Shown here: in pieces, positions 6,827-59,663 of the stretch
How the letters are laid out: each line of letters starts with the position of its first letter
How positions within the stretch are numbered: the stretch's first letter is position 1
Origin: Minisyncoccota bacterium
GTDB lineage: Bacteria; Patescibacteriota; Minisyncoccia; Phycocordibacterales; UBA6065
Assembly: GCA_035714745.1 (NCBI GenBank)
Contig: DASTLR010000008.1
Location: 7,394 to 71,393, forward strand
DNA length: 64,000 nucleotides
Direction of reading: 5' to 3'
The notes under the pieces: generated by a model
Database searches by the model: none
What the model saw: only the letters and a program-made list of their open reading frames with translations
Told to the model about the DNA's origin: nothing
Program-made: the position numbers and the translations under genes

Positions 6827-7816
6827 CTAGAAAGGATTCGTCGCCCCGCGGATCTCGAAGTGGACGTGCGGACCGGTAGACTTGCCGGTCGAGCCCAAGA
6901 GGCCGATGGTATCGCCCTGGCCGACAGCCTGGCCCTGGACGACGTCGACTCTGCTCATATGGCCATAGAGAGTCTGGGTGCCGTTCGGATGGGAGATGAC
7001 GACATATGAGCCGTAGCCTCCGTTATAGCCGCCGGAACGCGCCACGATGACGATGCCGCTCGCCGAGGCATGGATGGGCGTGCCTGTAGGCGCAGCCAGG
7101 TCGACGCCGTTATAGCCGTGAAGGCCCTGAGACTTCCTACCGCCATCGATAGGACGGATATAGTAATCCTTGTATACAGGACCGCCGGCGCCGCGCAGGG
7201 CCTCGGTAGGATTGGCGGCGGCCCCAGGGATGGAGGCGGGAGCGGGAGCAAGCTGGGCCTCGCCGTCAGGCACGATGATAGTCGAACCCACGGAAAGCAT
7301 CCCGTCCGCTGGCAGATCGTTATAGGCGATTATGTCATTCATGTCGGCCTTGTATTTCGTGGCTATCGAACGAACGGTGTCGCCTTTAGCGACCTTGTGG
7401 CTGACGCCGTTGATCGGCAGGATGACCAGCTCGTCTCCTTCGCGGATAGGGCCTTTGATATTGTTAGCCCAGATGATGGTATTAGCAGAGACGCCGTACA
7501 TCTTTGCGATCTGAGAAAGGGAATCGCCCTGGCGCACGACATACAGGCTGATCTGGGTCGATCGGCCTTCTTGGATATCTGCCTGGGTGCCGCTCGCGCC
7601 GCTCTCCTGGATCAGGGCCATACCGTTCAGCATGGCGATATCGCCCCCGCCGACGCCTGCCGTAGCGCTCGGGCCGACGTTCGCCTGGAGGACGCCGAGG
7701 ACTTCGGACGAGCGGGCGGCCACCTTTGCGTCAGCTTCTTTATTGCCGATAAGGTCAGAAATAAAAGAAAATACGCCCGCATAGGACGTACATGGCGCGA
7801 ATATGGTAAAAAGCAA
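6827..7816 (-). CDS. Peptidoglycan hydrolase with two LysM domains and an M23 metallopeptidase domain
   Basis: LysM repeats (YVVRQGDSLSQIAKMYGV and HKVAKGDTVRSIATKY) and the M23 motifs HxGVDLAA...GSTGKSTGPHVHFE. Confidence 0.8.
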   Translation of the reverse strand: MLFTIFAPCTSYAGVFSFISDLIGNKEADAKVAARSSEVLGVLQANVGPSATAGVGGGDIAMLNGMALIQESGASGTQADIQEGRSTQISLYVVRQGDSLSQIAKMYGVSANTIIWANNIKGPIREGDELVILPINGVSHKVAKGDTVRSIATKYKADMNDIIAYNDLPADGMLSVGSTIIVPDGEAQLAPAPASIPGAAANPTEALRGAGGPVYKDYYIRPIDGGRKSQGLHGYNGVDLAAPTGTPIHASASGIVIVARSGGYNGGYGSYVVISHPNGTQTLYGHMSRVDVVQGQAVGQGDTIGLLGSTGKSTGPHVHFEIRGATNPF

Positions 7817-8104
7817 AGAAAGCTTTACGCCGTAAAGCCCGATATTAAGCCATATATTTGACCGACGTGGAACAGACGTAGAAATAGTGCTGAAATTATC
7901 CGGGAATCGCGGGGTTTTCTGGCGATATGGCCTTGTTGAGCCATATTTTCAGGTAATCTGAGTTCGGTGTCCCTCCACTATACCTGCCCAGAGGGATACG
8001 TCAATCACATTTGTCCACCTGCTGTCCCCAGAGATATCTACAGCGTTGTATATGGCCTAACAAAGCCATATATTGGAAAATTTAGGCTATGATATAATCG
8101 ACTT

Positions 8105-10048: not shown

Positions 10049-10866
10049 TCGGCAAGCCGCAGAGATCGATAGCCGCCAAAAAATCCCTTGGCCAGAACTT
10101 CCTCATCTCGCCGCGCGTCGTCGAGGCCATCGCCGCGGCAGGAGAGCTAAGGGCAGAGGACGCCGTGATTGAAATAGGTCCGGGAAAGGGCGTATTGACC
10201 CGCGCGCTGCTCGCGAGCGGCGCGCGGGTCGTCGCCATAGAAAAGGATGACCGCCTTGTTCCCTTGCTCGCTGAAGAATTCAAACAGGAAATTGCCGCGG
10301 GCTGGCTACAGGTCGTTCATGGAGATGTTCTTGAGATCATGGCCGATAGCTCTCCTCTCCCTGAAAGCTGGCAGCTGAAAGCTGAAAGCTATAAAGTCAT
10401 CGCCAACATCCCGTACTACATCACCGGCCAGATCGTCAGGCTCTTCCTCTCGGCCAAGCAGAAGCCCGCGCTCATGGTCCTGATGGTCCAAAAGGAGGTA
10501 GCGGCCAGGGTCATCGCCCGCGACGGCAAGGAGAGCATCCTCTCGCTCTCGGTAAAAGCCTATGCCACGCCAGAGCTCGTCATGAACGTCTCGCGAGGGA
10601 ATTTCTTTCCCGTCCCGAACGTCGACTCGGCGGTCATCAAGCTTACGAATATACAAAACCCCTTTGCGGATAGAGCAGCGGAAGACCGCTTTTTTGAGAT
10701 AGTAAAGGCCGGCTTCTCGCAGAAGCGAAAGAAGCTTATCTCGAACCTGGAGGCGGTCATGCCGCGCGCCGAACTAGAAGCGAGGTTCGCCGCGCTCCGA
10801 CTCGATTCAAACGTGCGTGCCGAGGATGTACCGCTCGAGACGTGGATCGCCCTCGCCTCACGCTAG
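10045..10866 (+). CDS. rsmA: 16S rRNA (adenine1518/1519-N6)-dimethyltransferase
   Basis: KSLGQNFL...EIGPGKG...IANIPY, the KsgA signature. The ATGA start overlaps the pcrA stop. Confidence 0.9.
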   Translation: MIGKPQRSIAAKKSLGQNFLISPRVVEAIAAAGELRAEDAVIEIGPGKGVLTRALLASGARVVAIEKDDRLVPLLAEEFKQEIAAGWLQVVHGDVLEIMADSSPLPESWQLKAESYKVIANIPYYITGQIVRLFLSAKQKPALMVLMVQKEVAARVIARDGKESILSLSVKAYATPELVMNVSRGNFFPVPNVDSAVIKLTNIQNPFADRAAEDRFFEIVKAGFSQKRKKLISNLEAVMPRAELEARFAALRLDSNVRAEDVPLETWIALASR

Positions 10867-11255
10867 AATCCTGAAGATCCGACCGTCGAGGTGATCTTGC
10901 CCATGGCTGGGACGACGCTACAAGACGTGCCCACATAGATCTTGCACTGGCTCCTCGTCGTCGGATCGTACAGACCCAGTACCTTTGCGGCATAGGGGAG
11001 ATTCTTGTTGGCATACTTTTGCGTGCCGGCTTGATAGGTGAGCGTCACTTTGCTCGTGCCAGAAAAGATGGTCATGTAATAAACCCCGCTTGGACTGCAT
11101 GTACAAGGAAAAGAGAGGGGAAAAGTCGCCACAGTCCCTCCAAAAGGTACATCCTTGCCCACAATGTTCCCGAGAGTGAAAGCAAGAGCGCACACCGGCA
11201 GAGCAACGCCCGCAAGGATCGTTGCCGTCAGATATATTCTGCGTCTTATCATGCT
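10863..11255 (-). CDS. Hypothetical small secreted protein with a signal peptide (start at the internal Met MIRRRIYL)
   Basis: N-terminal signal-like segment ILAGVALPVCALA. No known motif. Confidence 0.35.
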   Translation of the reverse strand, partial: SMIRRRIYLTATILAGVALPVCALAFTLGNIVGKDVPFGGTVATFPLSFPCTCSPSGVYYMTIFSGTSKVTLTYQAGTQKYANKNLPYAAKVLGLYDPTTRSQCKIYVGTSCSVVPAMGKITSTVGSSGF

Positions 11256-11302: not shown

Positions 11303-12166
11303 ATGCGCGCTCTCCTGGGTTTCTTTGGGACAAAGATCGGCATCGCCGTCCTGGCGGCCATCGTCATCGTCGGCGCGGCAGCCGGATTCAAGTACAGCCG
11401 CTCGGCTCAGGAGAAGCAGAAAGGCGCCGCCACCCTCGTCGTCGAGCAGATCATCAAGGATTCCCTCAAGAACCTGAACGAGATAGAAGGGGACAGCGCC
11501 TTCGTCGCCTCGACCACCGGCCCAGACGACGCCGCTCCCCAGGAGCCGGCAGTGCCCTATACGGCTACCGACCGCTTCTCCCAGCAGATCTTCCGCGAAT
11601 ACATCTCGGCCAAGCAAAACGGCAAAGAGGTCGACGCCGACACCTCTGCCCGCATCGCCGAGAGCGTTCTTGCTCAAGATTATAGCGATAGAACGCCAGC
11701 CTACTCGGTTCTCGACCTCCATATCAGCGCCGACGAATCCGCCTCCTCTCTTAGAACGTACGGAAATAGCCTGGGAGCCATACTTTCAGCCCCGCCGGCG
11801 GCCAAAGAAAATGAATTAGAGATATTCCTCAAGCTCTCGTCAAAGTCGACAGACGACTATGGAAAAGAGCTGGCGGCCATACAAAAGCGCTATATTTCGA
11901 TGCGGACGGCGCTTTTGGCCCTGCCGGCGCCCAAAAGCTTTGCCGCGGCGCAGGTCGACATCCTTAATTCCCTCAACCTCTTCGTCGACGCCATAGACGG
12001 AGCGCTGAATATAGACGCTGACCCAATCGGGGCATTGAACAAGATAGCGCGGCATGACGACGGCATGACGGCCCTCCAAAAGGCCCTCGCTTCGATCAAA
12101 AAGACCTTCGCCGCAAAAGGCATGACCTTCGCGGCCAAAGAAAAAGGATTTATCCTCACAGAATAA
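11303..12166 (+). CDS. Hypothetical membrane-anchored protein
   Basis: An N-terminal TM helix (IGIAVLAAIVIVGAAAGF) followed by a soluble domain. It lies directly upstream of the T4SS-like locus. Confidence 0.4.
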   Translation: MRALLGFFGTKIGIAVLAAIVIVGAAAGFKYSRSAQEKQKGAATLVVEQIIKDSLKNLNEIEGDSAFVASTTGPDDAAPQEPAVPYTATDRFSQQIFREYISAKQNGKEVDADTSARIAESVLAQDYSDRTPAYSVLDLHISADESASSLRTYGNSLGAILSAPPAAKENELEIFLKLSSKSTDDYGKELAAIQKRYISMRTALLALPAPKSFAAAQVDILNSLNLFVDAIDGALNIDADPIGALNKIARHDDGMTALQKALASIKKTFAAKGMTFAAKEKGFILTE

Positions 12167-12195
12167 GGCCACATCGGTGGTATAATTTCCATATC

Positions 12196-14388
12196 ATGAA
12201 AGGCGGACTGCACCAAAAGATCGTTCTCTCGCTTCTCGTGCCCTTGCTCGCCGCCTCGAGCATGGTCTTTGGCACGGAAACCGCCTCTGCCGCCGTCGCG
12301 GGCTGTACCGCCAACGTCATCAGCGCCGCCGTAGGTAAAGGGGCGCTCGGAAAAGTGCTCGGCTCCGTCGTGCCGGTAGGCGACACCGTCACCAACATCG
12401 GCGTGACAGGCAGCTTCACCAAAGACTGCATCCTCACGCCGATCGCCATAAAGATGGCCCGCACCATGGCCAGGAACATCTCGAACAGCATCGTCAATTG
12501 GATCAATAGCGACTTCAAGGGCAAGCCTGCCTTCGTCACCGATTTCGGCAGCCTGGCAAAGGATAGCGCCGACGAGGTCATCGGCAACTTCATCTACGGC
12601 AGCGACTTGAACTTCCTCTGCCAGCCGTTCTCCTTCAAGATCCGCCTGGCCCTGGCCACGAAGTATCAGCAGCCCTTCCAGGAACAGATCCGCTGCCGCG
12701 TGACGGACGTGACCAAGAACGTCTCGAGCTTCGTCAAGGCAAACGGGGGAGCGGGCTGGAACAACTGGCTCGAGATCACCACTCAGCCGCAGAACAACGT
12801 ATACGGCGCATACCTGATGGCCGATTCCCAGCTTGCCCAGAACGTCCAGAGCGCCCTGAACGTCAAGAACGACCAGCTCAAGATGGGCAATGGATTCTTG
12901 GACTTCCAGGTCTGCGAGAAATGGATAGAGCCCGGAAAGTCGAGCGGCATCGTCGCAGACAGCGCAGCGTCGGCCGCGGCCCAGTCCAGCACCTATTCCT
13001 CGAGCCCCTTCAACTCGACGCTCCAGCCGACGAATACGAGTCTGACCGGCGGATCGCTGGGCGCGTCTGGAAATTCTCCACTCCAGGGCGCTAGCGTCGG
13101 CTTCGGCGTTCCTGTGACGGCCAACACCCTGCCTACCTTCAAAGACAGCGCCGGAAAGACCTTTGGAGTCGAGAAAACCTGCAGCAAATGGGTCACAAAG
13201 ACTCCTGGCGCCTATGTCGCCGAGCTCGGCAAGCCTGTGTTGGGCGGCTGGGCGGATCAGCTGAATCTCGCCACCGATATCGATCAGATCGTCGGAGCGC
13301 TCATCAACCACTTCGGGGAGAAGGTCGTGAGCGGCGCCCAAGGCTTCCTCGGGCTGTCGTCAAAGGGCGGCTACGCGCAGAGCAACCTGAACTATGCGCA
13401 GGCTTCCACATTCGCAGACGACGCCTCGAATCCCGAGAATGCCGGCCTGGGCGATGCCGGCGCCGCCGCTTCGGACAGCTTCTCGGCGCTCTTTTCGGCC
13501 ACCCAGGTCAGCCTGGGCGACAGCCTGGCGGCAGGCAAGGCGGTCTCGATGTCGAGCCCCGGCATCGGCAGCTCGGCATGGGTCGTCGACGGGGACACCG
13601 GCACGGCCGCCGCCACTGCCGAGACAGTCAATCCATGGATTGAGGTGGACCTGGGCGAGCCTGCAGAGATCAGGGAGATCCATATCTGGAGCCCTACCGA
13701 CCAGACACCGGCAGAAAGCGTCGGAACCTTTGACGTCGTCGTCTCGAAGTCGCAGGGCGGCCGCGACTGGGTCAGTCCGCAGGCTACGCAGACGGAGACC
13801 AGTCCGAACCCCGCCGTCGTCTCGGTAGGCCAGACCGGCAGATATATCAGGATAGAGCGCTCAAGGAACTCATACGAATGCGGCGACCCAGAGCAGGGCT
13901 CGCAGACCTGCTACTATCCGCTCCGAGTGGGGGAGATCGAGGTCGTCGGCCCTGCCGCCGGTACGGAACAAGACGGCGCAGCCCAGAGCGCGAGCGTCTC
14001 GTTCGGCACGCCGAGCGGGGCCACCTCTATCCGTCCTTCCTCGGCCTTCTCCTTTACCATCCCTGTCAACGCGACCTCCGAGACGAACATCGCCTTCGTA
14101 GAGGTCAGGCTCTACGCCGGAACCGAGCTCGCGCCGTTCGCCTCGGCCTTTTCCAACGGCTCGGTCGGCCTGAAACAGAGCGGCGCCACCCGCAACGTCT
14201 ATCCCGCAGGCGCTCCCGGCGTAGATTTCACGGGCGTTTCGGCCGGTCCGACCTCTGGAACCGCCATCACTGTCGCCGGTACCGCCCTGCCGCCGGGCGC
14301 CACGAGCGCGTACAAGATCGTGCTCACCGCCCGCGACGCAAATAGGGAAATCCTCGATACGGCTACTGTCAATTTCATAGTACAATAG
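12196..14388 (+). CDS. Large secreted protein with an F5/8 type C (discoidin) domain, a putative surface adhesin of the T4SS-like locus
   Basis: Signal peptide MKGG..LLAASSMVFG. The segment SAWVVDGDTGTAAATAETVNPWIEVDLGEPAEIREIHIW..RYIRIERS reads as a discoidin/F5-8C signature. Confidence 0.55.
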   Translation: MKGGLHQKIVLSLLVPLLAASSMVFGTETASAAVAGCTANVISAAVGKGALGKVLGSVVPVGDTVTNIGVTGSFTKDCILTPIAIKMARTMARNISNSIVNWINSDFKGKPAFVTDFGSLAKDSADEVIGNFIYGSDLNFLCQPFSFKIRLALATKYQQPFQEQIRCRVTDVTKNVSSFVKANGGAGWNNWLEITTQPQNNVYGAYLMADSQLAQNVQSALNVKNDQLKMGNGFLDFQVCEKWIEPGKSSGIVADSAASAAAQSSTYSSSPFNSTLQPTNTSLTGGSLGASGNSPLQGASVGFGVPVTANTLPTFKDSAGKTFGVEKTCSKWVTKTPGAYVAELGKPVLGGWADQLNLATDIDQIVGALINHFGEKVVSGAQGFLGLSSKGGYAQSNLNYAQASTFADDASNPENAGLGDAGAAASDSFSALFSATQVSLGDSLAAGKAVSMSSPGIGSSAWVVDGDTGTAAATAETVNPWIEVDLGEPAEIREIHIWSPTDQTPAESVGTFDVVVSKSQGGRDWVSPQATQTETSPNPAVVSVGQTGRYIRIERSRNSYECGDPEQGSQTCYYPLRVGEIEVVGPAAGTEQDGAAQSASVSFGTPSGATSIRPSSAFSFTIPVNATSETNIAFVEVRLYAGTELAPFASAFSNGSVGLKQSGATRNVYPAGAPGVDFTGVSAGPTSGTAITVAGTALPPGATSAYKIVLTARDANREILDTATVNFIVQ

Positions 14389-14393: not shown

Positions 14394-16787
14394 ATGAGAA
14401 AGTTCCTGCCCCAATTCCTCCTTGCAACGACCGCGCTCGTCGGAGTAGGCTTCTTTTTCGCGCCGCATGAGGCGCACGCGTTCGAAGCGATAGACACCCT
14501 CGTGAAATTCCTGACCTTCAGCTCGGACATCGTCTATGGCACCCTGGGCAAGCTCTTCTGGTTCGGCACCGTGCCGATCACCAGCTTCGTGCTCTGGCTG
14601 GTCGGCATGATGATCGACCTGGCCACCAACCTCTCTCTGACTAACAATTTCTTTAACGCTCCCGCCATCGCCACGGCATGGAGCATCATCCGCGACCTCT
14701 GCAACATGGTCTTCATCTTCGTCCTGATCTGGGCGGGACTGAGGACCATCCTGAACCTCGGCAACGCGGTGACGGTCAAGAAGACCATCACCGGCGTGGT
14801 CATCGCCGCCCTTTTCATCAACTTCAGCCTCTTCATCACCAAAGCCATTATCGACGTCAGCAATATCGGCACGGCCTGGTTCGTCAAAGGCGTCGAGAAC
14901 GTCGGGGGAGGGACGAGCGTCAGCGATTCCGTGCGAAGCGTCCTCCAGATGAACAAGCTCGTCGAGAACAAGGACGCCGGCAAAGGCGCCTGGAGCCTGC
15001 AGTCGTTCGTCGCAGGCTTCGCCCTGACCATCTTGAACTGCGTCGCCATCTACGTGCTCTTCAAAGTCGCCTTCTTCCTGGTAGCCAGGATCGTATCGTT
15101 CTTCTTCTTGCTCGTCACCGCGCCGCTCGGCTTCGTCGGCGGGCTCGAGATACCGCAGCTCTCGGCCTATTCGAAGAAATGGTGGGACGAGCTCCGCAAC
15201 CAGGCCCTGATGGCCCCGATGTTCTTCCTCATGCTCTATATCACGCTCTACATCGTCGATCAGGTTGACGCTCTCGTCTTTGCCAACGGCGCGGCGAGCT
15301 CGGTCGATCCCGTCACTGGCTCCGGCTTCACCCCCGCGAACTACGTGATGTTCGCCATCATCGTCCTCATGCTCAATAAATGCCTCTCCACCGCCGAGGA
15401 ATACAGCGGCGAGCTCGGCGGCCAGATCGCGGGGTATCTCAAGAGCGCTACCTCATTCGTTGGCGGCGCGGCTCTCATGGGAACGGTGGGCCGGGCAGCT
15501 ACTTGGGCCAAGAATAACAAAAGCTTCCAAAGCCTCGCGGGCAGGAGCGCGATCGCCGGCGCTCTTTATGGCGGGACAACGAAAGTCGCCGAGTCTGGCT
15601 TCGGCGTAAAATCTAATTATAACCAGCTCGCAAAATCCACCGGCCTCAGCTCCATCGATCTGACTAAAAACGCGTTCAAAGGCGCAGACAGCTATGAGAA
15701 ACAGAGGAAATTCGAAATCGATGAGAAGAAGAAATTCGCCAAAACGCTTGGAAAGGGGCCTGAAGGGGAGGCTAACAGGATCGCATACGCCAATCGGCTG
15801 GACAAAGGCGTCTACGCTCAGACTGTCGGCAGGCTGACCGGAGACAAGGCCAACCTCAAGGAAGCCGCAAAGGATATGGCGAAAGACGCGAAGACGGCCA
15901 TGACCAAGGGAGTCAAAGACGACGCCAAGAAGAAAGCGACCGCGAAGCAGAATCAGGTTGTCGTAGCAGAAACCGTCCAGGGTATGCTCAAGAAGCCTAT
16001 GAACAGCGCCGACGTGGGCGAAGTCGACAAGGCAGCTAAATCCGGGAAGAAGCTCCTGGCAGAATTGAGGAAAGACCTCAAAGAAGAGAACAAGGACGAC
16101 TACCTGAAATTCGTAAGCGGATACGAGGAATCAAAAGGAAGAATAGATCCGGAGAGCAAGGCAGACAAAATCGGGATTGACATTGCCCGTCTCCAGACCG
16201 AGAAAATGGAAGCGGAATGGGCGTTGAATAGGAATCCTAAAGACAGAGACGCCGAGAAGAAATTCTCTGAGGTTAATGCAAAGATAGCTGAAAAGACCAA
16301 GGAGAAGGAAGAAGCAGCCGCTCAGGAGTCTAAACAGAGAGAGCGCTTCGCCGAGCTAGCTAAAAAGATAACCGCTGAGGATAGGAAAGAAGCTGCCAAG
16401 AAATTCTCTGGAATCTCCGCCAAAGAATGGACCAAGATAGCCGAGCAACAAGTCGCATACGAAGACGAGATCATCAAGAATATCGATGCCGCTGAAAAGG
16501 CCCTTGATAATGCGCTAGAGAAGGCGGAATACATAGGGACTAAGAAAGAGAACCTCATGGAGGCGCAAAAAGCCCTTGAGACCGTCATCGGAAAGACTCC
16601 GAAGTTCAAGGGCGGCAAAAAAGGTCAGCCGCGAGAAATCGACAAAGATAATCCAGGATCAGGCCTCAAGAAGCAGGCAGCCGATCTTAAAGAGAAGTTC
16701 AATGATAAGAACAAGGAGCTCACTATAGGCAAAGACGAACCAGAGAAAAAAGAGGAGAAACCTCCGGAAGCAGCTCCTTCTAAATAA
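14394..16787 (+). CDS. VirB6/TrbL-like polytopic membrane protein with a Lys/Glu-rich coiled-coil tail of about 400 aa
   Basis: At least six hydrophobic helices in the first 400 aa in a VirB6-like arrangement, followed by a low-complexity K/E/A-rich region. Confidence 0.55.
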   Translation: MRKFLPQFLLATTALVGVGFFFAPHEAHAFEAIDTLVKFLTFSSDIVYGTLGKLFWFGTVPITSFVLWLVGMMIDLATNLSLTNNFFNAPAIATAWSIIRDLCNMVFIFVLIWAGLRTILNLGNAVTVKKTITGVVIAALFINFSLFITKAIIDVSNIGTAWFVKGVENVGGGTSVSDSVRSVLQMNKLVENKDAGKGAWSLQSFVAGFALTILNCVAIYVLFKVAFFLVARIVSFFFLLVTAPLGFVGGLEIPQLSAYSKKWWDELRNQALMAPMFFLMLYITLYIVDQVDALVFANGAASSVDPVTGSGFTPANYVMFAIIVLMLNKCLSTAEEYSGELGGQIAGYLKSATSFVGGAALMGTVGRAATWAKNNKSFQSLAGRSAIAGALYGGTTKVAESGFGVKSNYNQLAKSTGLSSIDLTKNAFKGADSYEKQRKFEIDEKKKFAKTLGKGPEGEANRIAYANRLDKGVYAQTVGRLTGDKANLKEAAKDMAKDAKTAMTKGVKDDAKKKATAKQNQVVVAETVQGMLKKPMNSADVGEVDKAAKSGKKLLAELRKDLKEENKDDYLKFVSGYEESKGRIDPESKADKIGIDIARLQTEKMEAEWALNRNPKDRDAEKKFSEVNAKIAEKTKEKEEAAAQESKQRERFAELAKKITAEDRKEAAKKFSGISAKEWTKIAEQQVAYEDEIIKNIDAAEKALDNALEKAEYIGTKKENLMEAQKALETVIGKTPKFKGGKKGQPREIDKDNPGSGLKKQAADLKEKFNDKNKELTIGKDEPEKKEEKPPEAAPSK

Positions 16788-17344: not shown

Positions 17345-17791
17345 ATGCGTTTCCAGGTCCCTCAATTCATCGAGGTCGAGGACAAGATCTTCGGCCCTCT
17401 GACCATCAAGCAGTTCATCTACCTCCTGGGCGGGGCCGGCCTCTCCTTTATCGTCTATAGCTTCGTCGGCAACCTCTTTCTGAGCGCCGTCTTCATCGTG
17501 CCGATCATGGCCTTTGCCCTGGCTCTGGCCTTCTACAAAGTGAACGGCAAGCCCTTCATCAACGTCGTCGAGGCGGCCTTTACTTACTTCGTCAACAGCA
17601 AGCTCTATATCTGGAAGAAGGTCGACAAGGTCCCGGTAGCCAAGAACGCCCCGACCGCGGCAGGCGCCGCCTCGCCCGATTTCTATGTGCCAAAGCTGTC
17701 GGATTCCAAGCTCAAGGACCTGACCTGGTCGCTCGACATCAAGCAGAGCCAGAACCCCGCCCAGAACCAGAAAGGGAAGAGCAATTTCTAG
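17345..17791 (+). CDS. PrgI/VirB3-like small membrane protein
   Basis: Two TM helices (LGGAGLSFIVYSFVGNLFLSAVFIVPIMAFALALAF) sit directly upstream of the VirB4 gene, as in Gram-positive conjugation loci. Confidence 0.5.
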   Translation: MRFQVPQFIEVEDKIFGPLTIKQFIYLLGGAGLSFIVYSFVGNLFLSAVFIVPIMAFALALAFYKVNGKPFINVVEAAFTYFVNSKLYIWKKVDKVPVAKNAPTAAGAASPDFYVPKLSDSKLKDLTWSLDIKQSQNPAQNQKGKSNF

Positions 17792-17807: not shown

Positions 17808-18443
17808 ATGGCAGTGAACGCAAAAACGACCCAGGAATTCGTGCCGATCAAGGAGATCCGCCAGGGTGTGGTCATCCTCAAGGACGATTCCCTGCGGGGC
17901 ATCGTCATAGCCTCGTCCCTGAACTTCGCCCTGAAGTCCGCCGAGGAGCAGCAGTCGATCATCCTGCAGTTCCAGAACTTCCTGAACTCGCTCGATTTCT
18001 CCGTGCAGATCTTCATCCAGTCCCGAAAGCTCGACATCAGGCCCTATATCGCTCTATTAGAGAACAGACTCAAGGAGCAGGTGGGCGACCTCTTGAAAAT
18101 GCAGACGCGCGAGTACATCTCATTCATCAAGAACTTCACCGAGAGCCAGAACATCATGAGCAAGACCTTCTTCGTCGTGGTGCCCTATACTCCGGCACCG
18201 GTGAGCGCCAGCGGCATCGCCGACGTCCTGGGGAAAAAGAAGACGGCGACCGAGACGGCCGAGCAGCGCCTGGCCGAATTCGAGGAGCACAGGAGCCAGC
18301 TGGAGCAGAGGATGGGCGTGGTGACCCAGGGCCTGGTGCGCTGCGGCATCCGCACCATCGAGCTGGGCACCGAGGAGGTCGTCGAGCTCTTCTACAAGAT
18401 CTTTAACCCGGGCGATACGGAAAAGCCTATTCCACTTTCATAA
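17808..18443 (+). pseudogene. virB4: VirB4-family ATPase, N-terminal fragment of about 211 aa, separated from the rest of the gene by a stop plus a +1 frame change
   Basis: TQEFVPIKEIRQGVVILKDDSLRGIV matches the N-terminal motif of Gram-positive VirB4/TraE/Orf16 proteins. The ORF ends at TAA 4 nt before the next ORF, which is in another frame. Confidence 0.55.
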
Positions 18444-18447
18444 TCCT

Positions 18448-20250
18448 ATGGGAATATTCGATTTTCTAAAGAAGAAGAGCAAGGTAGAGATAGCTCCGAT
18501 CCTACCTCAAGAAATATACGAAGCGGGCGTCTTGGAATTAAAAGACGTCATCGCCCCGTCGGCCCTCAAGGTATCGCCGCGCGAGCTCTCCCTGGGTGAC
18601 AAGATCGTCAGGTCCTTCTTCGTCATCTCGTACCCGCGCTTCCTCTCGGAGAGCTGGTTCGCCCCGATCATCAACTTGGACAAGGTCTTCAACATCTCTA
18701 TCTTCATCCACCCGGTCGAGACGGCCAAGGTCCTCCGCCAATTCCAAAAGAAAGTAGCCGAGGTCCAGAGCCAGATCTCCATCAGGGAACAGAAAGGATT
18801 AGTGCGCGATCCGATGCTCGATACGGCATACCAGGACCTGGAATCGCTCCGCGACAACCTCATGCAGGCTCAGGAGAAGCTCTTCGACGTGGGCGTCTAT
18901 ATCTCGATCTACGGCGACAGCGCCAGCGAGCTGGACAAGACCGAGTCCGAGATCAAGTCGATCCTGGAGTCCAAGCTGGTCTACGTCAAGCCGGCCCTCT
19001 TCCAACAGGAGCAGGGCTACAAGAGCAACCTGCCGACAGCCACCGACCAGCTTTTGGTCCATTCCAAGCTGAATTCCAGCCCTCTTTCCAGTCTTTTCCC
19101 GTTCATCTCCTTCGACCTGACCTCGGACAAGGGCATCCTCTACGGCATCAACAGGCATAACTCGTCCCTGGTGCTCTTCGACCGCTTCTCGCTCGAGAAC
19201 TACAACTCCATCACCTTTGCCAAGTCCGGCGCCGGAAAGTCATACGCCACCAAGCTGGAGATCCTGCGAACGCTGATGTTCGACACCGACGTCATCGTCA
19301 TCGACCCCGAGAAAGAATACGAATACCTGGCCGAATCGACGGGAGGCAAATACTTCAACATCTCGCTCAATTCCGAGCATCGCATCAATCCCTTCGACCT
19401 GCCGCTGCCGCGCGAGGACGAGTCGCCAGCCGACGTCCTGCGCTCGAACATCATCAACCTGGTCGGCCTGTTCCGCATCATGATGGGCGGCCTGACGCCC
19501 GAGGAGGACGCCATCATCGACCGCGCCATCACCGAGACCTACGCCCTCAAGGACATCACCCCGGACACTGACTTCTCGCACACCGAGGCGCCGCTGCTCT
19601 CGGACTTCGAGCTGGTGCTCGCCGGCATGGAGGGAGGGGAGTCCCTGGTCCAGCGCCTGACGAAATACACCAAGGGCACCTGGTCCGGCTTCATCAACAG
19701 GCCGACGAACGTCGACATCGGCGCCAAATTCGTGGTCTTCTCGCTCCGCGACATGGAGGACGAGCTCAAGCCGGTGGCCATGTATATCGTCACCCACTAC
19801 ATCTCGAACGCCGTGAGGAAGAACGTCAAGAAGCGCCTGCTCGTCATCGACGAGGCGTGGTGGATGATGAAATCCGAAGACACGGCCTCGTTCCTCCTGG
19901 GCTTGGCCAAGCGCGGACGCAAGTATTTCCTAGGCCTGGCCACCATCACCCAGGACGTCGACGACTTCCTTAAATCGCCGTACGGCCTACCGATCATCAC
20001 CAACTCCTCGATCCAGGTCCTCCTCAAGCAATCGCCGTCGTCGATCGACCGTCTCCAGCAGGTCTTCAATCTCACCGACGAGGAGAAATACCTCCTCCTC
20101 GAGTCCGACGTGGGAGAGGGCATATTCTTCGTCGGCTTGAAACACGTGGCCATAAAGGTCATCGCCTCGTATACCGAGGACCAGATCATCACCTCGGACC
20201 CCGCCCAGATATTGGCTATAAAGGAAGCGAAGAAGAATCTGGCGCAGTAG
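18448..20250 (+). CDS. virB4: VirB4-family ATPase, C-terminal 600 aa piece with a Walker A box
   Basis: IAPSALKVSPRELSLGDKIVRSFFVISYPRF is the VirB4 mid-N-terminal motif. Later come the Walker A box AKSGAGKSY, a Walker B box LLVIDEAWWMM and the C-terminal TraC/VirB4 motifs. Confidence 0.8.
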   Translation: MGIFDFLKKKSKVEIAPILPQEIYEAGVLELKDVIAPSALKVSPRELSLGDKIVRSFFVISYPRFLSESWFAPIINLDKVFNISIFIHPVETAKVLRQFQKKVAEVQSQISIREQKGLVRDPMLDTAYQDLESLRDNLMQAQEKLFDVGVYISIYGDSASELDKTESEIKSILESKLVYVKPALFQQEQGYKSNLPTATDQLLVHSKLNSSPLSSLFPFISFDLTSDKGILYGINRHNSSLVLFDRFSLENYNSITFAKSGAGKSYATKLEILRTLMFDTDVIVIDPEKEYEYLAESTGGKYFNISLNSEHRINPFDLPLPREDESPADVLRSNIINLVGLFRIMMGGLTPEEDAIIDRAITETYALKDITPDTDFSHTEAPLLSDFELVLAGMEGGESLVQRLTKYTKGTWSGFINRPTNVDIGAKFVVFSLRDMEDELKPVAMYIVTHYISNAVRKNVKKRLLVIDEAWWMMKSEDTASFLLGLAKRGRKYFLGLATITQDVDDFLKSPYGLPIITNSSIQVLLKQSPSSIDRLQQVFNLTDEEKYLLLESDVGEGIFFVGLKHVAIKVIASYTEDQIITSDPAQILAIKEAKKNLAQ

Positions 20251-20266: not shown

Positions 20267-21289
20267 ATGCGCATGTCGCGCTTAGCAAAAAGCACTTTCT
20301 TTATCCTATCTTCTCTGGTGTTCTTGGTGTTCTCTGTGCTCTCTGTCTCTTCCGTATCGGCCCAGGGCATCCCCGGCATCTCCGCTCCTCTCATCCTCAC
20401 CATGGAGCCAGCCAATCCCAAGCCGCTCCAGACCGTCAACCTCTCGCTAAAAAGCTTCAGCCTCGACATCGACAAGGCGTCCATATCATGGACCGTCAAC
20501 GGTAAAGTAGCCGCCCGCGGCATAGGCATGAAGGTCTTTAGCGTCCAGGCTGGGTCTTTGGGCTCCTCAAAGACCGTTGAAGCGGTGGTCGCCACCGACT
20601 CCGAGGGCGATTTGAGCCAGACGGCAGTCATCCGTCCGGCCGACCTGACCTTGATATGGCAGGCCGCGTCATACGTTCCGGCTTTTTACAAGGGAAAGGC
20701 CCTGCTTTCCTACGGCGGCGCCTACAAAGTCGTGGCATTGCCCGAGATCCTCGACGCGAACGGGCGAAAGATAGATCCGCGCACGCTCATTTACGCCTGG
20801 AAAAAGAACGAGGCGGCCCAGCAGGAGGCTTCAGGCTATGGAAAATCCTACTTCGTCAGCAGCCAGAGCAGCTTCGTCCGCCAGGGCGACGAGATCGCGG
20901 TCGAAGTGACCTCCCCGGCCGATGGCTTCACCGTCTCGGCGCAGACCACCGTCGTGCCGGTCGCCCCCGAGCTTCATTTCTATGAGGATAGCCCCCTGTA
21001 TGGCGTCGTCTTCGAGAAAGAGGCTGCGGGCAGGATGAAGCTGGCAAACGAGGAGGTCACGCTGGCCGCCGAGCCGTTCTTCTTTTCTGCTGTCGACAAG
21101 GGGAGCGCGCTCCTGGGCTACACGTGGACGCTCGGCGGGGCTGCGGTCCCGGAATTCCAGGATAAGCCCTCGATAACCCTGCGCCGCGCCACGGCGGCGG
21201 CCGGCTCGGCCTCTATCGGCCTGTCGGTAGGGAACAGCGCCAGGCTCCTGCAGGGCGCCGAACAGAGCCTTTTAATACAATATGAATAG
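20267..21289 (+). CDS. Hypothetical secreted protein of the T4SS-like locus
   Basis: Signal peptide LSSLVFLVFSVLSVSSVSAQG. The start is translationally coupled to the virB4 stop. No motif recognised. Confidence 0.45.
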   Translation: MRMSRLAKSTFFILSSLVFLVFSVLSVSSVSAQGIPGISAPLILTMEPANPKPLQTVNLSLKSFSLDIDKASISWTVNGKVAARGIGMKVFSVQAGSLGSSKTVEAVVATDSEGDLSQTAVIRPADLTLIWQAASYVPAFYKGKALLSYGGAYKVVALPEILDANGRKIDPRTLIYAWKKNEAAQQEASGYGKSYFVSSQSSFVRQGDEIAVEVTSPADGFTVSAQTTVVPVAPELHFYEDSPLYGVVFEKEAAGRMKLANEEVTLAAEPFFFSAVDKGSALLGYTWTLGGAAVPEFQDKPSITLRRATAAAGSASIGLSVGNSARLLQGAEQSLLIQYE

Positions 21290-22520
21290 GATGAAAAAAA
21301 CCTTTGCCGCCGTCGCATTCTCGCTCTACCTGGCGTTGGGCTTCGCGGCTGCCGCATCAGCTCAGGTAGATACCAACTACATACCTCTGACGACCGTTCC
21401 CGGCGCCTTTGAAGCCGGCAAGATCACGAACCCGGTAAAGGTAGTGGCGGGCGTCTACGGCATCGCCATCGGCATCGGATCGATCATCGCCGTCGTCATG
21501 ATCATCCTGGCCGGCTTCAAATATATGTACCAGGAGTCGATCGACGGCAAGTCAGACGCCAAAGAGCAGATCACCAACGCCTTCATAGGCCTCTTCGTCA
21601 TCCTCGGCTCGTATATCATCCTCAAGACCATCAATCCCGCGCTCGTCGACTTCGACGTCGAGCTCCGGGGCGGAAGCGGAAAGGTGTCCGGGCTCATCGC
21701 CATACAAAAGGAGCTCGATGCGACTCAATCAAAAGTAGCTCAAGCTAACGCCGCCACAGCCGAGCGGCAAAAAGAAATCGACGCTCTCAAGACTACGACT
21801 CTACCTAACAAGGAAAAAGAGATCCAAGCGATGAAAGACAGGATCGCAGCCGCAGAAAAGACAGCAGGCGGGCCGGGAAAAAAAGCCGTGCTCGACGAAC
21901 TTAATGGCCAACTCGCCAAGCTGGAGGGTGAGAAAGCCCAGATACTCGACACTATCAGCATAAAGACGATTGATAACCTAAAGACCATCGCCCAAAATAA
22001 TGTCACCCTTGGAAGAGACAATGTCTTCAAGAACGAGATCACCTCGCTCACCAAGATAACAGACCCGACCCAGGCTTCGGTTGAGGCAAGGGAATCCCTT
22101 CGAAGACTGGCGGTCCAGACAGACAGCCTTAAACTCGCGATGGAAAAGAAGATAGCCGAGGCCGAAACAATTGACGTAGCGATCGGCTCAAAAAGCGAGG
22201 TGGCTAAGCAAGAGTACTTCAATGCTGCCAACCAGGATTTGACATATATCAATCAATCAAAAAGCCTCATCACCGAAGCTCATGACACAATAAACGCCAA
22301 CTCTGGCGGTACAGACAAGCAAAATTCTGAATACAATGCGCTGCTCAGCAAATATGCGGGCTATGTTAAAGAACTTCAAGATTCCAATAGAAAGGACTTG
22401 GCAGACCGACTCCAAACCGATATTGATAGCGTGACCAAGATAATGAAAATCCGCCAAGCGGTGAATTGCGCGACATATGATGCGGCTCGTCGACAGCAGC
22501 TTACTCTCTGCCAACCATAG
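21282..22520 (+). CDS. VirB2/TrbC-like pilin-fold protein (signal peptide plus two TM helices) with a C-terminal coiled-coil extension of about 280 aa
   Basis: Signal peptide followed by two hydrophobic helices (VVAGVYGIAIGIGSIIAVVMIILAGF and AFIGLFVILGSYIILKTI), which is the TrbC/VirB2 topology. The rest is heptad-rich. Confidence 0.45.
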   Translation: MNRMKKTFAAVAFSLYLALGFAAAASAQVDTNYIPLTTVPGAFEAGKITNPVKVVAGVYGIAIGIGSIIAVVMIILAGFKYMYQESIDGKSDAKEQITNAFIGLFVILGSYIILKTINPALVDFDVELRGGSGKVSGLIAIQKELDATQSKVAQANAATAERQKEIDALKTTTLPNKEKEIQAMKDRIAAAEKTAGGPGKKAVLDELNGQLAKLEGEKAQILDTISIKTIDNLKTIAQNNVTLGRDNVFKNEITSLTKITDPTQASVEARESLRRLAVQTDSLKLAMEKKIAEAETIDVAIGSKSEVAKQEYFNAANQDLTYINQSKSLITEAHDTINANSGGTDKQNSEYNALLSKYAGYVKELQDSNRKDLADRLQTDIDSVTKIMKIRQAVNCATYDAARRQQLTLCQP

Positions 22521-22522: not shown

Positions 22523-23749
22523 ATGTCAAAGAAACTGTTCTTCTTCATCATACTGGCGGTCATCGCGGTCCTGGGCGTGGCGGGATGGTGGTTCCTGCGC
22601 CTACAGGTGGCGGCGCCGGCGGTACAGCAGCCTGACCAGACGGGGGAGGACCTCTTTCCTTTTGGCTCGGGAGCGGTAAAGCCGAGCGAGGCCAAGCCTG
22701 CAACCACCACCCAGCCTGTCTCGAACGTCACGGCTCCGACTTCGCCCGCGGCCCAGCCAAGGCTCCGCAAGCTCTCGTCCGAGCCTGCCGTCTCCGCGGC
22801 TTTCGTCTATTCAGCGACGTCGACGCGCGCCGTCCGCTTCGTCGACCGCGCCACGGGCCATATCCTGGAAGCGGCGGTAGATTCGGCCCTTCAGTCCACA
22901 CCGTCGAACGTCACCATCCCCCAGGTCAGGGAAGCGCTGTGGGGAGACAAGGCTTCGTCATTGGTCTATCGCTATCTGAAAGGCTCGACCGTCCAATCGT
23001 TCTACGCCGCTCTTAAATCCGGCACGGCGACGAGCTCCCAGCCGATCGAGGGCATATTCCTGCCGAGCGACATCCGATCGATGGCGGTGACCGGCGGCAA
23101 GATCCTCTATTTCGATCCTTCCGTCGAAAGCGGCCGCCTGATCATGGCGAATATGGACGGATCAAAGAAAGCCACGGTCTGGACCTCTGATTTCGGCGAG
23201 TGGGCAATCTCCTCGGTAAATCCCGCAAAGGCTTTCATATATACCAAACCGAGCGCCTCAGCTAACGGCGTCGGCTACATCGTCGACACTACAAAGGGCA
23301 CGGCTACGAAGGTCGTCGGCGACGCTGCCGGCCTCGAGGGTTCGATCGGCCCGTCCGGCGACTACGTCTTCCTCTCGGCCGCTTCGGGCTCGGGAATCGC
23401 TTCAGCGTCGTATTCGGCCGCCAAAAAGACGGTCAGCCAGCTCTCCCTGAGCACGCTAGCCTCCAAATGCGCCTGGAGCGGCGCATCGAAAAAGACGGTC
23501 TACTGCGGAATCCCTGCGAACCTTGAAAGCGCCGCATACCCTGACGACTGGTACAAGGGCTCCGTCAGCTTCTCTGACAGGCTCTGGAAGATCGACATGG
23601 AAACGGGAGAGACCGAGGTCGTCTTGGACCCCTTCCTCGACAGCCTGAACGAATTCGACATGACGAACCTGACGGTCGATCCGACGGATACCTATCTGGC
23701 CTTTGTGAACAAGAAAGACCTCTCGCTCTGGCTGTACAAGATCAAATAA
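22523..23749 (+). CDS. Hypothetical membrane-anchored extracytoplasmic protein, last gene of the T4SS-like locus
   Basis: N-terminal TM helix FFFIILAVIAVLGVAGWWF, a Pro/Thr-rich linker, then a beta-rich domain. Confidence 0.45.
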   Translation: MSKKLFFFIILAVIAVLGVAGWWFLRLQVAAPAVQQPDQTGEDLFPFGSGAVKPSEAKPATTTQPVSNVTAPTSPAAQPRLRKLSSEPAVSAAFVYSATSTRAVRFVDRATGHILEAAVDSALQSTPSNVTIPQVREALWGDKASSLVYRYLKGSTVQSFYAALKSGTATSSQPIEGIFLPSDIRSMAVTGGKILYFDPSVESGRLIMANMDGSKKATVWTSDFGEWAISSVNPAKAFIYTKPSASANGVGYIVDTTKGTATKVVGDAAGLEGSIGPSGDYVFLSAASGSGIASASYSAAKKTVSQLSLSTLASKCAWSGASKKTVYCGIPANLESAAYPDDWYKGSVSFSDRLWKIDMETGETEVVLDPFLDSLNEFDMTNLTVDPTDTYLAFVNKKDLSLWLYKIK

Positions 23750-40899: not shown

Positions 40900-40906
40900 T
40901 CAAGCG

Positions 40907-53824: not shown

Positions 53825-53897
53825 TGGTGCCTATAGTTTAGTGGTAAAACTCCGGATTGTGGTCCCGGCATTGTGGGTTCGATTCCCACTAGGCACC
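53825..53897 (+). tRNA. tRNA-His (anticodon GUG) with a G(-1) extra base; boundary of the AT-rich island
   Basis: G-1 plus acceptor GTGCCTA/TAGGCAC, anticodon loop UUGUGGU, T loop TTCGATT and discriminator C. Confidence 0.75.
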
Positions 53898-56981: not shown

Positions 56982-57059
56982 ATAATTTATTATTTGCAGG
57001 GCGATTATAAAAAAGCAGAGCAAGTTCATTGCTCCGCTTAAAGGGGGTGGTTAAGAGGG

Positions 57060-57752: not shown

Positions 57753-57805
57753 AGCTTAATCTTATGTCATTTTGGACGTGCATAAAATGACAAAAGGAAT
57801 AGTAT

Positions 57806-59658: not shown

Positions 59659-59663
59659 ATTCA

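What the first reader, a model, noticed from the sequence alone, without database searches (positions are those of the whole stretch)
12196..14388. 730 aa secreted protein with a discoidin (F5/8 type C) domain as the first gene of the T4SS-like operon
Residues around 450-560 (SAWVVDGDTG...NPWIEVDLGEPAEIREIHIW...GRYIRIERS) read as a carbohydrate-binding discoidin module. The C-terminal part looks like Ig-like beta domains. A carbohydrate- or surface-binding module on a T4SS-linked secreted protein suggests an adhesin or host-attachment factor, by analogy with PrgB-like adhesins in Gram-positive systems. The N-terminal 400 aa have no recognisable family.
Basis: partly seen in the sequence, partly recalled or inferred. 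Interest (0 to 1): 0.55.

Follow-up and report, generated by a model that had tools for sequence, protein, structure and literature searches.

The report
Lectin-tipped secreted subunit of Patescibacteria T4SS
[quoted passage not shown] Its conserved front half may be the system's missing VirB5-like tip subunit, and its rear half has been replaced here by a sugar-binding domain that could recognise the host cell.

Summary
ORF 12196-14388 (+) encodes 730 aa with a Sec-type leader and a significant discoidin-type domain at aa ~442-585 (PF22633 E 5e-12, PF00754 E 1e-9). The contig is from a Candidatus Paceibacterota bacterium.

The discoidin domain is not what defines the protein. The "unrecognisable" N-terminal part (aa ~71-395) is a very large Patescibacteria family with no Pfam model: 6091 cluster representatives. 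In 41 of 41 testable genomes it lies directly upstream of the VirB6-like, PrgI, TrsD and VirB4 genes.

About a fifth of family members carry the leader and mature N-terminal motif of VirB5/TrbJ, the T4SS minor pilin. The query keeps only a degenerate copy. C-terminal tails are swapped at this one locus: a helical tail of about 180 aa is commonest, and the discoidin plus beta-domain tail is in the minority.

My best reading is an extracellular, VirB6-docked, VirB5-like stalk or tip subunit whose exchangeable C-terminal module binds a host-surface glycan. Full VirB5 homology and fold are not shown. The Ig-like fold of the last 140 aa is unproven, and this is the second gene of the conserved block, not the first. 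I rate it a new variant of a known kind, of moderate interest.

The parts
12178..12186 (+). TGGTATAAT, a perfect extended -10 box ending 9 nt before the ATG. It is a possible promoter of its own that would give a leaderless or near-leaderless mRNA.
   Evidence: Read from the sequence. Similar boxes start 6-15 nt before the start codon in 12 of 53 long ORFs, against about 0.7 expected. The two-hexamer promoter scan found none in this region.
12196..14388 (+). The gene: a 730-aa secreted multidomain protein (P0001).
   Evidence: It has 40 homologues with E from about 1e-244 to 1e-10.
12196..12291 (+). Sec-type signal peptide, aa 1-32 (MKGGLHQKIVLSLLVPLLAASSMVFGTETASA).
   Evidence: Hydrophobic segment at aa 9-27 with a Kyte-Doolittle score of 2.07, and A-S-A before the predicted cut. 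Judged from the sequence; no predictor was run.
12292..12405 (+). Mature N-terminal segment, aa 33-70. It holds a Gly/Ala-rich stretch with Cys37, then VVPVGDTVTN (aa 57-66), a degenerate copy of the VirB5/TrbJ-type N-terminal motif.
   Evidence: Compared by eye with family N-termini such as AVVPVLDAPN and AQWFVIDPAN. No HMM detects the motif in the query itself. A Cys in this segment accompanies Cys78 in 35 of 35 members that have Cys78.
12406..12924 (+). Conserved family domain, first part, aa 71-243. It is helical and carries the motifs VNWINS(D/G)F-G-P-FVTD, FLC-PF, GGWNNW..TTQPQNN-YGAY and G-GFL..C.
   Evidence: Alignments A1-A3 and A5. The profile search found 6091 representatives. The AF2 model has pLDDT 70-91 for much of this part.
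12925..13179 (+). Low-complexity Ser/Ala/Gly/Thr-rich insert, aa 244-328. It varies in length and sequence across the family.
   Evidence: Alignment A2 columns 200-320. pLDDT is below 50.
13180..13380 (+). Conserved family domain, second part, aa 329-395 (C..TPG....L...LG...DQL.LA.DIDQIVGAL).
   Evidence: Cys240 is accompanied by exactly one Cys in or after the insert in 155 of 162 members.
13519..13950 (+). Discoidin / F5-8 type C / F-type-lectin-like domain, aa 442-585, with an internal Cys561-Cys572 loop.
   Evidence: PF22633 E 5.1e-12 and PF00754 E 1.3e-9. PDB F-type lectin 3le0 E 0.0025. The domain is conserved in 19 family members.
13963..14385 (+). C-terminal domain, aa 590-730, ending in NF(I/V)VQ. 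It looks beta-rich. An Ig/cadherin-like sandwich is suspected but not shown.
   Evidence: Conserved in 11 homologues (A4). The only outside hits are weak: protocadherin-15 at E 0.015 and Pfam Cadherin at E 0.039 in 2 of 11 members.
11303..12166 (+). Upstream syntenic gene: 287 aa, one N-terminal TM helix, no family assignment.
   Evidence: Present upstream on the same strand in 30 of 41 loci.
14394..16787 (+). VirB6-like 'extended' polytopic membrane protein: 797 aa, about 6 hydrophobic helices plus a long charged tail.
   Evidence: TM scan. The orthologue in L002 carries a weak PF04610 TrbL hit. Present downstream in 41 of 41 loci.
17345..17791 (+). PrgI (VirB3-like) protein.
   Evidence: PF12666 E 7.5e-12. 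Present in 41 of 41 loci.
17808..20250 (+). Split VirB4: TrsD-like N-terminal protein (17808-18443) and the ATPase (18448-20250).
   Evidence: NCBIfam conju_CD1110 E 1.1e-108 and TrsD E 2.1e-5. Pfam P-loop_TraG. Present in 41 of 41 loci.
21282..22520 (+). VirB2-like T4SS pilin domain protein (412 aa).
   Evidence: PF18895 E 1.2e-5, which is 25.7 bits against a cut-off of 26.6. NCBIfam Mbov_0395 pilin-like E 2.4e-4.

Best explanation
The protein is a Sec-exported, disulfide-stabilised extracellular subunit of the chromosomal, oriC-proximal T4SS of Paceibacteria (Patescibacteria/CPR).

Shown: its conserved helical N-terminal domain (aa ~71-395) defines a very large, unnamed Patescibacteria family. 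That family is encoded immediately upstream of the VirB6-like channel protein.

Inferred: the N-terminal domain docks the protein onto the VirB6-like base. The protein then takes the role that VirB5/TrbJ plays in Gram-negative systems, as a stalk cap that is carried outward at the tip of the VirB2-like pilus.

Shown: the C-terminal part is an exchangeable module. Inferred: it acts as the business end. In this genome it is a discoidin/F-type-lectin-like domain followed by a beta-rich domain, and this most likely binds a carbohydrate on the envelope of the host cell. That would give the T4SS its target specificity or attachment.
For: Anatomy:
- Leader peptide.
- Significant discoidin domain.
- Co-varying cysteine pairs: Cys142 and Cys167 are both present in 170 members, both absent in 10 and never single. 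Cys240 has exactly one partner Cys in 155 of 162 members. Cys78 has a partner in 35 of 35 members. This indicates an oxidising, extracytoplasmic location.
- No invariant acidic or other catalytic-looking residues in the N-domain. This argues for a structural or binding role.

Family size: 6091 representatives at E<=1e-3 and 3656 at E<=1e-30.

T4SS linkage:
- The gene order UvrD, RsmA, ~300-aa TM protein, this family, VirB6-like, PrgI, TrsD, VirB4, pilin is the same in distant homologues and in discoidin-bearing ones.
- All four core T4SS genes follow in 41 of 41 loci with enough flank.

VirB5 link:
- PF13605 matches 21 of 93 family members, best E 3.8e-8, at the leader plus mature N-terminus.
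- PF13605 is also the only Pfam hit of genuine Agrobacterium VirB5, and several annotated VirB5 proteins carry it.
- PF13605 genes in Bacteroides lie beside traJ (PMC10434189); traJ is the VirB6 homologue from my own knowledge.
- TrbJ models are the top recurrent NCBIfam hits, matching the same residues.
- A profile of only the mature 28 residues of 26 members ranks VirB5 proteins as the top 7 of 767 targets. E ranges from 1e-7 to 4e-4 for five of them, and no decoy scores below 1.
- virB5 also directly precedes virB6 in the Ti plasmid.
- In R388, a VirB5 pentamer sits on a VirB6 pentamer (PMC9259494).

Module exchange: tails cluster into a common helical type of about 180 aa (98 representatives), a discoidin type (34) and others, all at the same locus.

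Context: published surveys found VirB2-like pilins but no VirB5 and no adhesin in the Patescibacteria-clade T4SS (PMC12102498).
Against: - Similarity to VirB5/TrbJ is confined to about 25-40 N-terminal residues. hhalign of the family against a VirB5 alignment aligned only 25 columns, with probability 38% and E 3e-4.
- All PF13605 and TrbJ scores that I saw individually are below the curated cut-offs.
- The query itself is not detected by PF13605 or by my motif profile. Its motif is degenerate and is displaced by a 25-aa insertion.
- The domain is larger than a whole VirB5.
- Of the four fucose-contacting positions of F-type lectins, only the Asp is kept: His, Arg, Asp and Arg align with Ala, Pro, Asp and Ser. 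Sugar binding and its target are therefore inferred, not shown.
- No expression, localisation or binding data exist.
Confidence: 0.5

Rival explanations
1. It is a cell-wall-spanning scaffold of the machine rather than a tip adhesin. The N-domain would form part of the channel or collar through the Patescibacteria envelope, standing in for the hard-to-find VirB8-like or wall-spanning parts. The discoidin domain would bind the bacterium's own wall or S-layer glycans and anchor the apparatus.
For: The synteny with VirB6, VirB3 and VirB4 is strict. VirB8 homologues are largely undetected in Patescibacteria (PMC12102498). Discoidin/CBM32-type domains often bind cell-wall-related sugars (my own knowledge). 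The extracellular disulfides fit this reading too.
Against: A self-anchoring module should be conserved across the family. Instead the tail is swapped between lineages, as expected for a part facing a variable partner. The VirB5/TrbJ-type N-terminal motif points to the minor-pilin slot and not to VirB8. No NTF2-like fold is predicted; the model is all-helical.
Confidence: 0.2
2. It is a secreted substrate or effector, or an envelope-remodelling enzyme, of the T4SS locus. The N-domain would be an unrecognised hydrolase or pore-former acting on the host envelope, and the discoidin domain would be its carbohydrate-targeting module, as CBM32 is in glycoside hydrolases.
For: Discoidin/CBM32 domains are typically appended to enzymes (my own knowledge). 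The best Pfam model is named after a NedA-like domain. The Gly/Ala-rich hydrophobic segment at the mature N-terminus of this subclade could insert into a membrane. In the R388 complex, VirB5's own N-terminus is described as reminiscent of pore-forming proteins (PMC9259494).
Against: The protein has a Sec leader, so it does not need the T4SS for export. Only Asp126 is a near-invariant acidic residue, and the other conserved residues are hydrophobic, Gly, Asn or Cys. No hydrolase family or fold was matched. An M23/LysM hydrolase is already encoded nearby at 6827-7816.
Confidence: 0.15
3. It is an unrelated surface lectin or adhesin. It would be a conserved neighbour of the T4SS genes only because the whole oriC-proximal region is syntenic in Paceibacteria.
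For: Housekeeping genes (UvrD, RsmA, YidC, DnaA, DnaN) are part of the same conserved neighbourhood, so synteny alone is not proof of function.
Against: The gene is embedded between two other cluster-specific genes with gaps of 5-30 nt or overlaps. It is on the same strand as the T4SS genes in 41 of 41 loci. Family members carry a motif otherwise seen in VirB5, TrbJ and Bacteroides DUF4141 proteins, which are T4SS components.
Confidence: 0.1

Closest known systems
VirB5 / TrbJ / TraC(pKM101) / TrwJ(R388) / CagL: the T4SS minor pilin, which forms the stalk tip and acts as an adhesin
   Same: - Sec leader.
- Predicted mainly helical.
- Gene directly next to the VirB6-type gene.
- A VirB2-like pilin is encoded in the same cluster.
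- A fraction of the family shares the mature N-terminal motif, for example Q-W-F-V-I-D-P-A-N against VirB5 Q-F-V-V-S-D-P-A-T. This was detected by PF13605, by TrbJ models and by my own profile.
   Different: - Two to three times larger.
- No detectable similarity beyond about 25-40 residues.
- No structural match to TraC, CagL or TrwJ with the available model.
- Three disulfides.
- An exchangeable C-terminal module.
- The query's own motif is degenerate.
Bacteroides conjugative-transposon DUF4141 (PF13605) proteins, known as 'TraI' in MPF_B systems
   Same: The N-terminal Pfam signature is the same, and the gene again sits beside the VirB6 homologue traJ (PMC10434189). Patescibacteria pilins also resemble Bacteroides TraE/DUF4134 proteins (supplement of PMC10633639).
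   Different: PF13605 covers only 53 positions. The rest of the Bacteroides proteins could not be compared here because no sequence was at hand. The hosts are diderm and the proteins are much shorter (my own knowledge).
PrgB / aggregation substance and other LPxTG adhesins of Gram-positive conjugation systems
   Same: Both are surface proteins encoded with a monoderm-type (MPF_FATA-like) T4SS and are thought to bind polymers on the partner cell.
   Different: There is no LPxTG sorting signal and no polymer-adhesin domain, and no sequence similarity was found. The published survey found no PrgB homologues in Patescibacteria. PrgB is not encoded beside VirB6 as an invariant core gene (my own knowledge).
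F-type lectins and discoidin / CBM32 (galactose-binding-like) domains, for example Sm-hPAF 3le0 and NedA-like PF22633
   Same: Significant Pfam matches, and the best PDB matches over aa 442-555.
   Different: Of the His/Arg/Asp/Arg fucose-binding residues, three are replaced by Ala, Pro and Ser and only the Asp is kept. An extra Cys561-Cys572 loop precedes the last strand. The ligand is unknown.

Membership tests
Discoidin / F5-8 type C superfamily (PF00754, PF22633) | Significant match to the family profile above the curated cut-off | tested here: met
   PF22633 scores 46.7 bits against a cut-off of 27.8. PF00754 scores 38.7 bits against 28.2.
Discoidin / F5-8 type C superfamily (PF00754, PF22633) | Beta jelly-roll fold shown by a structural model | not tested
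Only sequence alignment to solved F-type lectins is available.
F-type (fucose-binding) lectins | His ... Arg-x-Asp-x4-Arg/Lys fucose-binding motif (recalled from the literature) | tested here: not met
   In the alignment to Sm-hPAF the motif positions read Ala, Pro, Asp and Ser in the query.
VirB5 / TrbJ minor pilin family | Sec leader followed by the conserved mature N-terminal motif (PF13605-type; the N-terminus of TrbJ models) | tested here: inconclusive
   The motif is present in part of the family: 21 of 93 members by PF13605, TrbJ models in 6 of 93, and my profile finds VirB5 proteins at E from 1e-7 to 4e-4. The query itself is not detected by any of these. It has only a degenerate VVPVGDTVTN.
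VirB5 / TrbJ minor pilin family | Full-length sequence homology to VirB5/TrbJ | tested here: not met
   hhalign aligns only 25 N-terminal columns, with probability 38%. The PDB profile search found no TraC, TrwJ or CagL. Scores are far below the NCBIfam cut-offs.
VirB5 / TrbJ minor pilin family | Elongated helical-bundle fold like TraC (1R8I), CagL or TrwJ | tested here: inconclusive
VirB5 / TrbJ minor pilin family | Encoded beside the VirB6-type gene in a cluster that also has VirB2-like pilin, VirB3 and VirB4 | tested here: met
   plus 41 of 41 loci. The Ti plasmid has the order virB5 then virB6.
VirB5 / TrbJ minor pilin family | Physical location on the VirB6 stalk and at the pilus tip | not testable with these tools
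   This needs cryo-EM/ET, immunolabelling or a multimer prediction.
PrgB-type Gram-positive conjugation adhesins | C-terminal LPxTG sortase signal and a polymer-adhesin domain | tested here: not met
   The C-terminus reads ...TATVNFIVQ with no LPxTG or TM anchor. No matching Pfam or NCBIfam domain was found.
Unnamed Patescibacteria family (N-domain with VNWINSGF ... TTxPQNNxYGAY ... TPGSVI ... ADEINEIVxAL) | Profile match over the whole domain, and the position upstream of the VirB6-like gene | tested here: met
   The query scores E 1e-101 against the A2 profile. There are 6091 relatives. Synteny is shown.

The most novel reading that the evidence does not exclude
The N-terminal domain family would be the long-missing VirB5-equivalent of the essential Patescibacteria T4SS. 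It would be a pentameric cap on the VirB6-like base that rides to the tip of the VirB2-like pilus. Its lineage-specific C-terminal modules (a helical tail, discoidin plus a beta domain, PKD/Ig and others) would be the host-range determinants of these obligate epibionts. In this subclade the glycine/alanine-rich mature N-terminus would insert into the host membrane, as proposed for the projected N-terminus of VirB5 in the R388 structure. Together these would turn the pilus tip into a lectin-guided membrane-penetrating device.
Probability: 0.25. Interest if true: 0.8.

Novelty: new variant of a known kind. Interest (0 to 1): 0.6.

Why it matters
Patescibacteria make up a large share of bacterial diversity, and every cultivated member lives attached to another microbe. 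Their T4SS is essential in the one genetically tractable species (PMC10633639), yet what it transports and how it finds its target are unknown. The published survey of these systems reported VirB2-like pilins but no VirB5 and no adhesin (PMC12102498).

A core, extracellular, VirB6-adjacent protein family with thousands of members fills that gap with a concrete candidate. The family has a VirB5/TrbJ-type N-terminus in part of its members and swappable C-terminal modules, here a lectin domain. This makes host recognition testable through glycan arrays, domain swaps and multimer modelling with the VirB6-like protein. It also supplies a new profile for annotating these clusters.

Tried and rejected
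1. AF2 of aa 1-440 with 41 sequences gave pLDDT 54.7 and was unusable. Repeating it for aa 60-440 with 150 sequences gave pLDDT 63.8.
3. Profile searches of the family against PDB sequences found nothing for the N-domain.
4. An enzyme reading of the N-domain is considered unlikely, because Asp126 is the only near-invariant acidic residue.
5. A lipoprotein reading of Cys37 was rejected. The preceding residues include Glu28, Cys37 lies beyond the usual window, and relatives have non-lipobox residues before their Cys.
6. A homologue search with the C-terminal tail alone (aa 440-730) returned nothing, although the parent protein is in the database. I treat this as a tool quirk, so the wider distribution of the tail module is unresolved.
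7. R388 (BR000038) could not be fetched as a TrwJ source. The Ti-plasmid VirB5 was used instead.
8. The two-hexamer promoter scan found no promoter near the gene. The -10-only boxes were found by eye and by regex.
9. The long antisense ORF 11890-13341 (-) was disregarded. The window is GC-rich and only the + frame has homologues.
Full report
**What is there.** The + strand ORF 12196-14388 encodes 730 aa. The identical protein is deposited as 'discoidin domain-containing protein [Candidatus Paceibacterota bacterium]' (P0001), so the window comes from a Patescibacteria (CPR) genome. The N-terminus has Lys at positions 2 and 8, a hydrophobic core at aa 9-25 and A-S-A at aa 30-32, which reads as a Sec leader. 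Pfam gives two significant, overlapping matches at aa 457-554: PF22633 F5_F8_type_C_2 at E 5.1e-12 and PF00754 at E 1.3e-9, both above their curated cut-offs. Among solved structures the nearest sequences are F-type lectins, led by Sm-hPAF 3le0 at E 0.0025 over aa 442-555. In that alignment the His/Arg/Asp/Arg fucose-contacting positions read Ala, Pro, Asp and Ser. The domain therefore belongs to the discoidin/galactose-binding-like superfamily, but it is not a canonical fucolectin and its ligand is unknown.

**The neighbourhood.** Downstream on the same strand, in order:
- a 797-aa protein with about six hydrophobic helices and a long charged tail (VirB6-like 'extended' type; its orthologue in another genome has a weak TrbL hit);
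- a 171-aa acidic protein;
- PrgI/VirB3 (PF12666);
- a split VirB4, made of a TrsD-like protein and an ATPase of the CD1110 family (E 1e-108);
- a secreted 340-aa protein;
- a 412-aa protein with a near-threshold T4SS_pilin domain;
- a 408-aa membrane-anchored protein.

Then come YidC, DnaA and DnaN. Upstream are a LysM/M23 peptidase, UvrD, RsmA and a 287-aa single-TM protein. This matches the oriC-proximal, relaxase-less, MPF_FATA-like T4SS with VirB2-like pilins described for Patescibacteria (PMC12102498). That system is essential in Southlakia epibionticum (PMC10633639).

**The N-terminal part is the real family signature.** Homologues of the whole protein share mainly aa ~75-240 and ~325-395, which flank a low-complexity insert. 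A profile of this domain found 6091 cluster representatives at E<=1e-3, and 3656 at E<=1e-30, among 1.84 billion representatives. Neither Pfam nor NCBIfam has a model for it. All named sources are Patescibacteria, chiefly Paceibacterota/Parcubacteria lineages.

Typical members are about 550 aa: a leader, about 60 aa, the domain of about 280 aa, and a tail of about 180 aa. The tails fall into clusters. The commonest is a helical-looking tail (98 representatives) that is absent from our protein. The discoidin-containing type has 34 representatives. Several smaller clusters exist, some with PKD/Ig-like domains.

The domain has no invariant catalytic-looking residues. Its cysteines co-vary as pairs. 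Cys142 and Cys167 are both present in 170 members, both absent in 10 and never single. Cys240 has exactly one partner Cys in 155 of 162 members. Cys78 has an upstream partner in 35 of 35 members. This is the pattern of a disulfide-bonded extracellular protein.

**Linkage to the T4SS.** Three distant homologues (26-42% identity) and two discoidin-bearing ones all sit in the same slot: UvrD, RsmA, ~300-aa TM protein, this family, VirB6-like, one or two small genes, PrgI, TrsD, VirB4, then the pilin. A genome-wide scan recovered 373 loci. Of the 80 loci fetched, 41 had at least 8 kb of downstream sequence, and all 41 have VirB6-like, PrgI, TrsD and VirB4 downstream on the same strand at constant offsets. 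Only one of the 80 has a discoidin domain. The lectin module is a lineage-specific replacement of the tail at an orthologous locus.

A lead came from scanning 93 family members individually. PF13605 (DUF4141, a 53-position model) matched 21 of them, best E 3.8e-8. The match always fell at residues ~20-55, which is the end of the leader plus the mature N-terminus. The same model is the only Pfam hit of genuine Agrobacterium VirB5 (E 0.0016), and several proteins annotated 'pilin minor subunit VirB5' carry it. In Bacteroides, DUF4141 genes lie beside traJ in conjugative transposons (PMC10434189). NCBIfam independently ranks three TrbJ models (TrbJ is the P-type VirB5) as the most recurrent hits, on the same residues.

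To exclude an effect of the signal peptide, I built a profile from only the mature 28 residues of 26 members (consensus WAVFDPGNFVQNTITAV...). Among 767 targets (59 VirB5 proteins, the query and seven close relatives, and about 700 decoys), VirB5 proteins took the top seven places. Five of them scored E from 1e-7 to 4e-4, and no decoy scored below E 1. The motifs are nearly the same by eye: Q-F-V-V-S-D-P-A-T in VirB5 against Q-W-F-V-I-D-P-A-N in P0045.

Gene order agrees as well. virB5 directly precedes virB6 in the Ti plasmid. In the R388 structure, a VirB5 pentamer is mounted on a VirB6 pentamer, with the VirB5 N-terminus projected outward like a pore-former (PMC9259494).

**Limits of that link.**
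- hhalign of the family against a VirB5 alignment aligns only 25 columns, with probability 38%.
- Every PF13605 and TrbJ score that I saw individually is below the curated cut-off.
- The fold search did not recover TraC, CagL or TrwJ.
- The query itself is not detected by PF13605 or by my motif profile.
- In the query's subclade a Gly/Ala-rich, Cys-containing stretch of about 25 aa follows the leader, and only a degenerate VVPVGDTVTN (aa 57-66) remains.

I therefore treat 'works like VirB5' as the leading hypothesis and do not file the protein as a VirB5 family member.

**The C-terminal 140 aa.** Eleven homologues share this domain, which ends in NF(I/V)VQ. A profile of it gives only sub-threshold cadherin-type hits: protocadherin-15 at E 0.015, and Pfam Cadherin at E 0.039 in 2 of 11 members.

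**Operon position.** The gene is not the first of the block. The 287-aa TM protein gene ends 29 nt upstream and is syntenic in 30 of 41 loci. However, a perfect extended -10 box (TGGTATAAT, 12178-12186) ends 9 nt before the ATG and there is no Shine-Dalgarno sequence. Similar boxes precede 12 of 53 long ORFs in the window, against about 0.7 expected. This suggests -10-only promoters and leaderless mRNAs, so the gene may have its own promoter.

**Mechanism proposed.**
- Shown: a secreted, disulfide-bonded, modular protein; an invariant neighbour of VirB6, VirB3 and VirB4; a genuine discoidin domain; tail exchange at one locus; a VirB5/TrbJ-type N-terminal signature in part of the family.
- Inferred: after Sec export, the N-domain docks on the extracellular face of the VirB6-like base. 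It caps the growing VirB2-like pilus as VirB5 does. The C-terminal discoidin and beta domains bind a glycan on the host envelope, giving attachment or target specificity.
- Rivals: a wall-spanning scaffold whose lectin binds the bacterium's own envelope (0.2); a lectin-targeted enzyme, pore-former or effector (0.15); an unrelated neighbour (0.1).

**Novelty.** The protein and the T4SS cluster are in public databases, and the discoidin annotation already exists. The published survey of Patescibacteria T4SS found no VirB5 and no adhesin, and the papers I could search say nothing about this family or about discoidin domains in this context. The finding is best described as a new variant of a known kind: a VirB5-position subunit with an unrelated large helical body and swappable receptor-binding tails. 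Interest is moderate to good. The idea is testable and bears on how CPR epibionts recognise hosts, but the key steps are inferred.

Noticed in passing
window 53827-64000: GC content falls from about 0.59 to 0.38-0.47. The low-GC stretch starts just after a tRNA (53827-53897, +) with a large serine recombinase (53889-55490, -). It also contains a LOOT RNA (RF03000, 56049-56168, -, 84 bits) and a heavy-metal P-type ATPase (60761-63052, +). It looks like an integrated mobile element.
   Followed up: partly
window, upstream of many start codons, e.g. 8090-8098, 12178-12186, 40892-40900 and upstream of 47777-48235 (-): -10-like boxes (TAnA[AC]T, several of them perfect TGnTATAAT) start 6-15 nt before the start codon in 12 of 53 long ORFs, against about 0.7 expected. 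Most have no Shine-Dalgarno sequence. This suggests widespread leaderless mRNAs from -10-only promoters in this genome.
   Followed up: partly
window 12292-12363 (aa 33-56), and relatives P0004, P0039 and P0050: In the query's subclade, a Gly/Ala-rich hydrophobic segment with one Cys lies between the leader and the degenerate VirB5-like motif. In some relatives it looks like a glycine zipper, for example GAASGALAVASGAGALAG. It could be a membrane-inserting tip or only a linker.
   Followed up: no
window 17808-20250: VirB4 is encoded as two genes, a TrsD-like N-terminal protein and the ATPase, separated by 4 nt. This matches what has been described for Patescibacteria and pGO1-type systems.
   Followed up: partly
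window 20267-21289 and 22523-23749: Two further conserved cluster genes have no family assignment. One is a secreted 340-aa protein, found in 38 of 41 loci. The other is a membrane-anchored 408-aa protein, found in 29 of 41 loci, whose orthologue has a weak Tricorn_N beta-propeller hit. Both are candidates for other extracellular T4SS parts.
   Followed up: no
window 10863-11255 (-): A small minus-strand ORF encodes a leader-like N-terminus (MIRRRIYLTATILAGVALPVCALA...). It is divergent from the T4SS block. Related loci also have a minus-strand gene at this spot.
   Followed up: no
window 6827-7816 (-): A LysM + peptidase M23 protein is conserved just upstream of UvrD in all related loci examined. 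It is a possible VirB1-like wall-remodelling partner of the T4SS.
   Followed up: no
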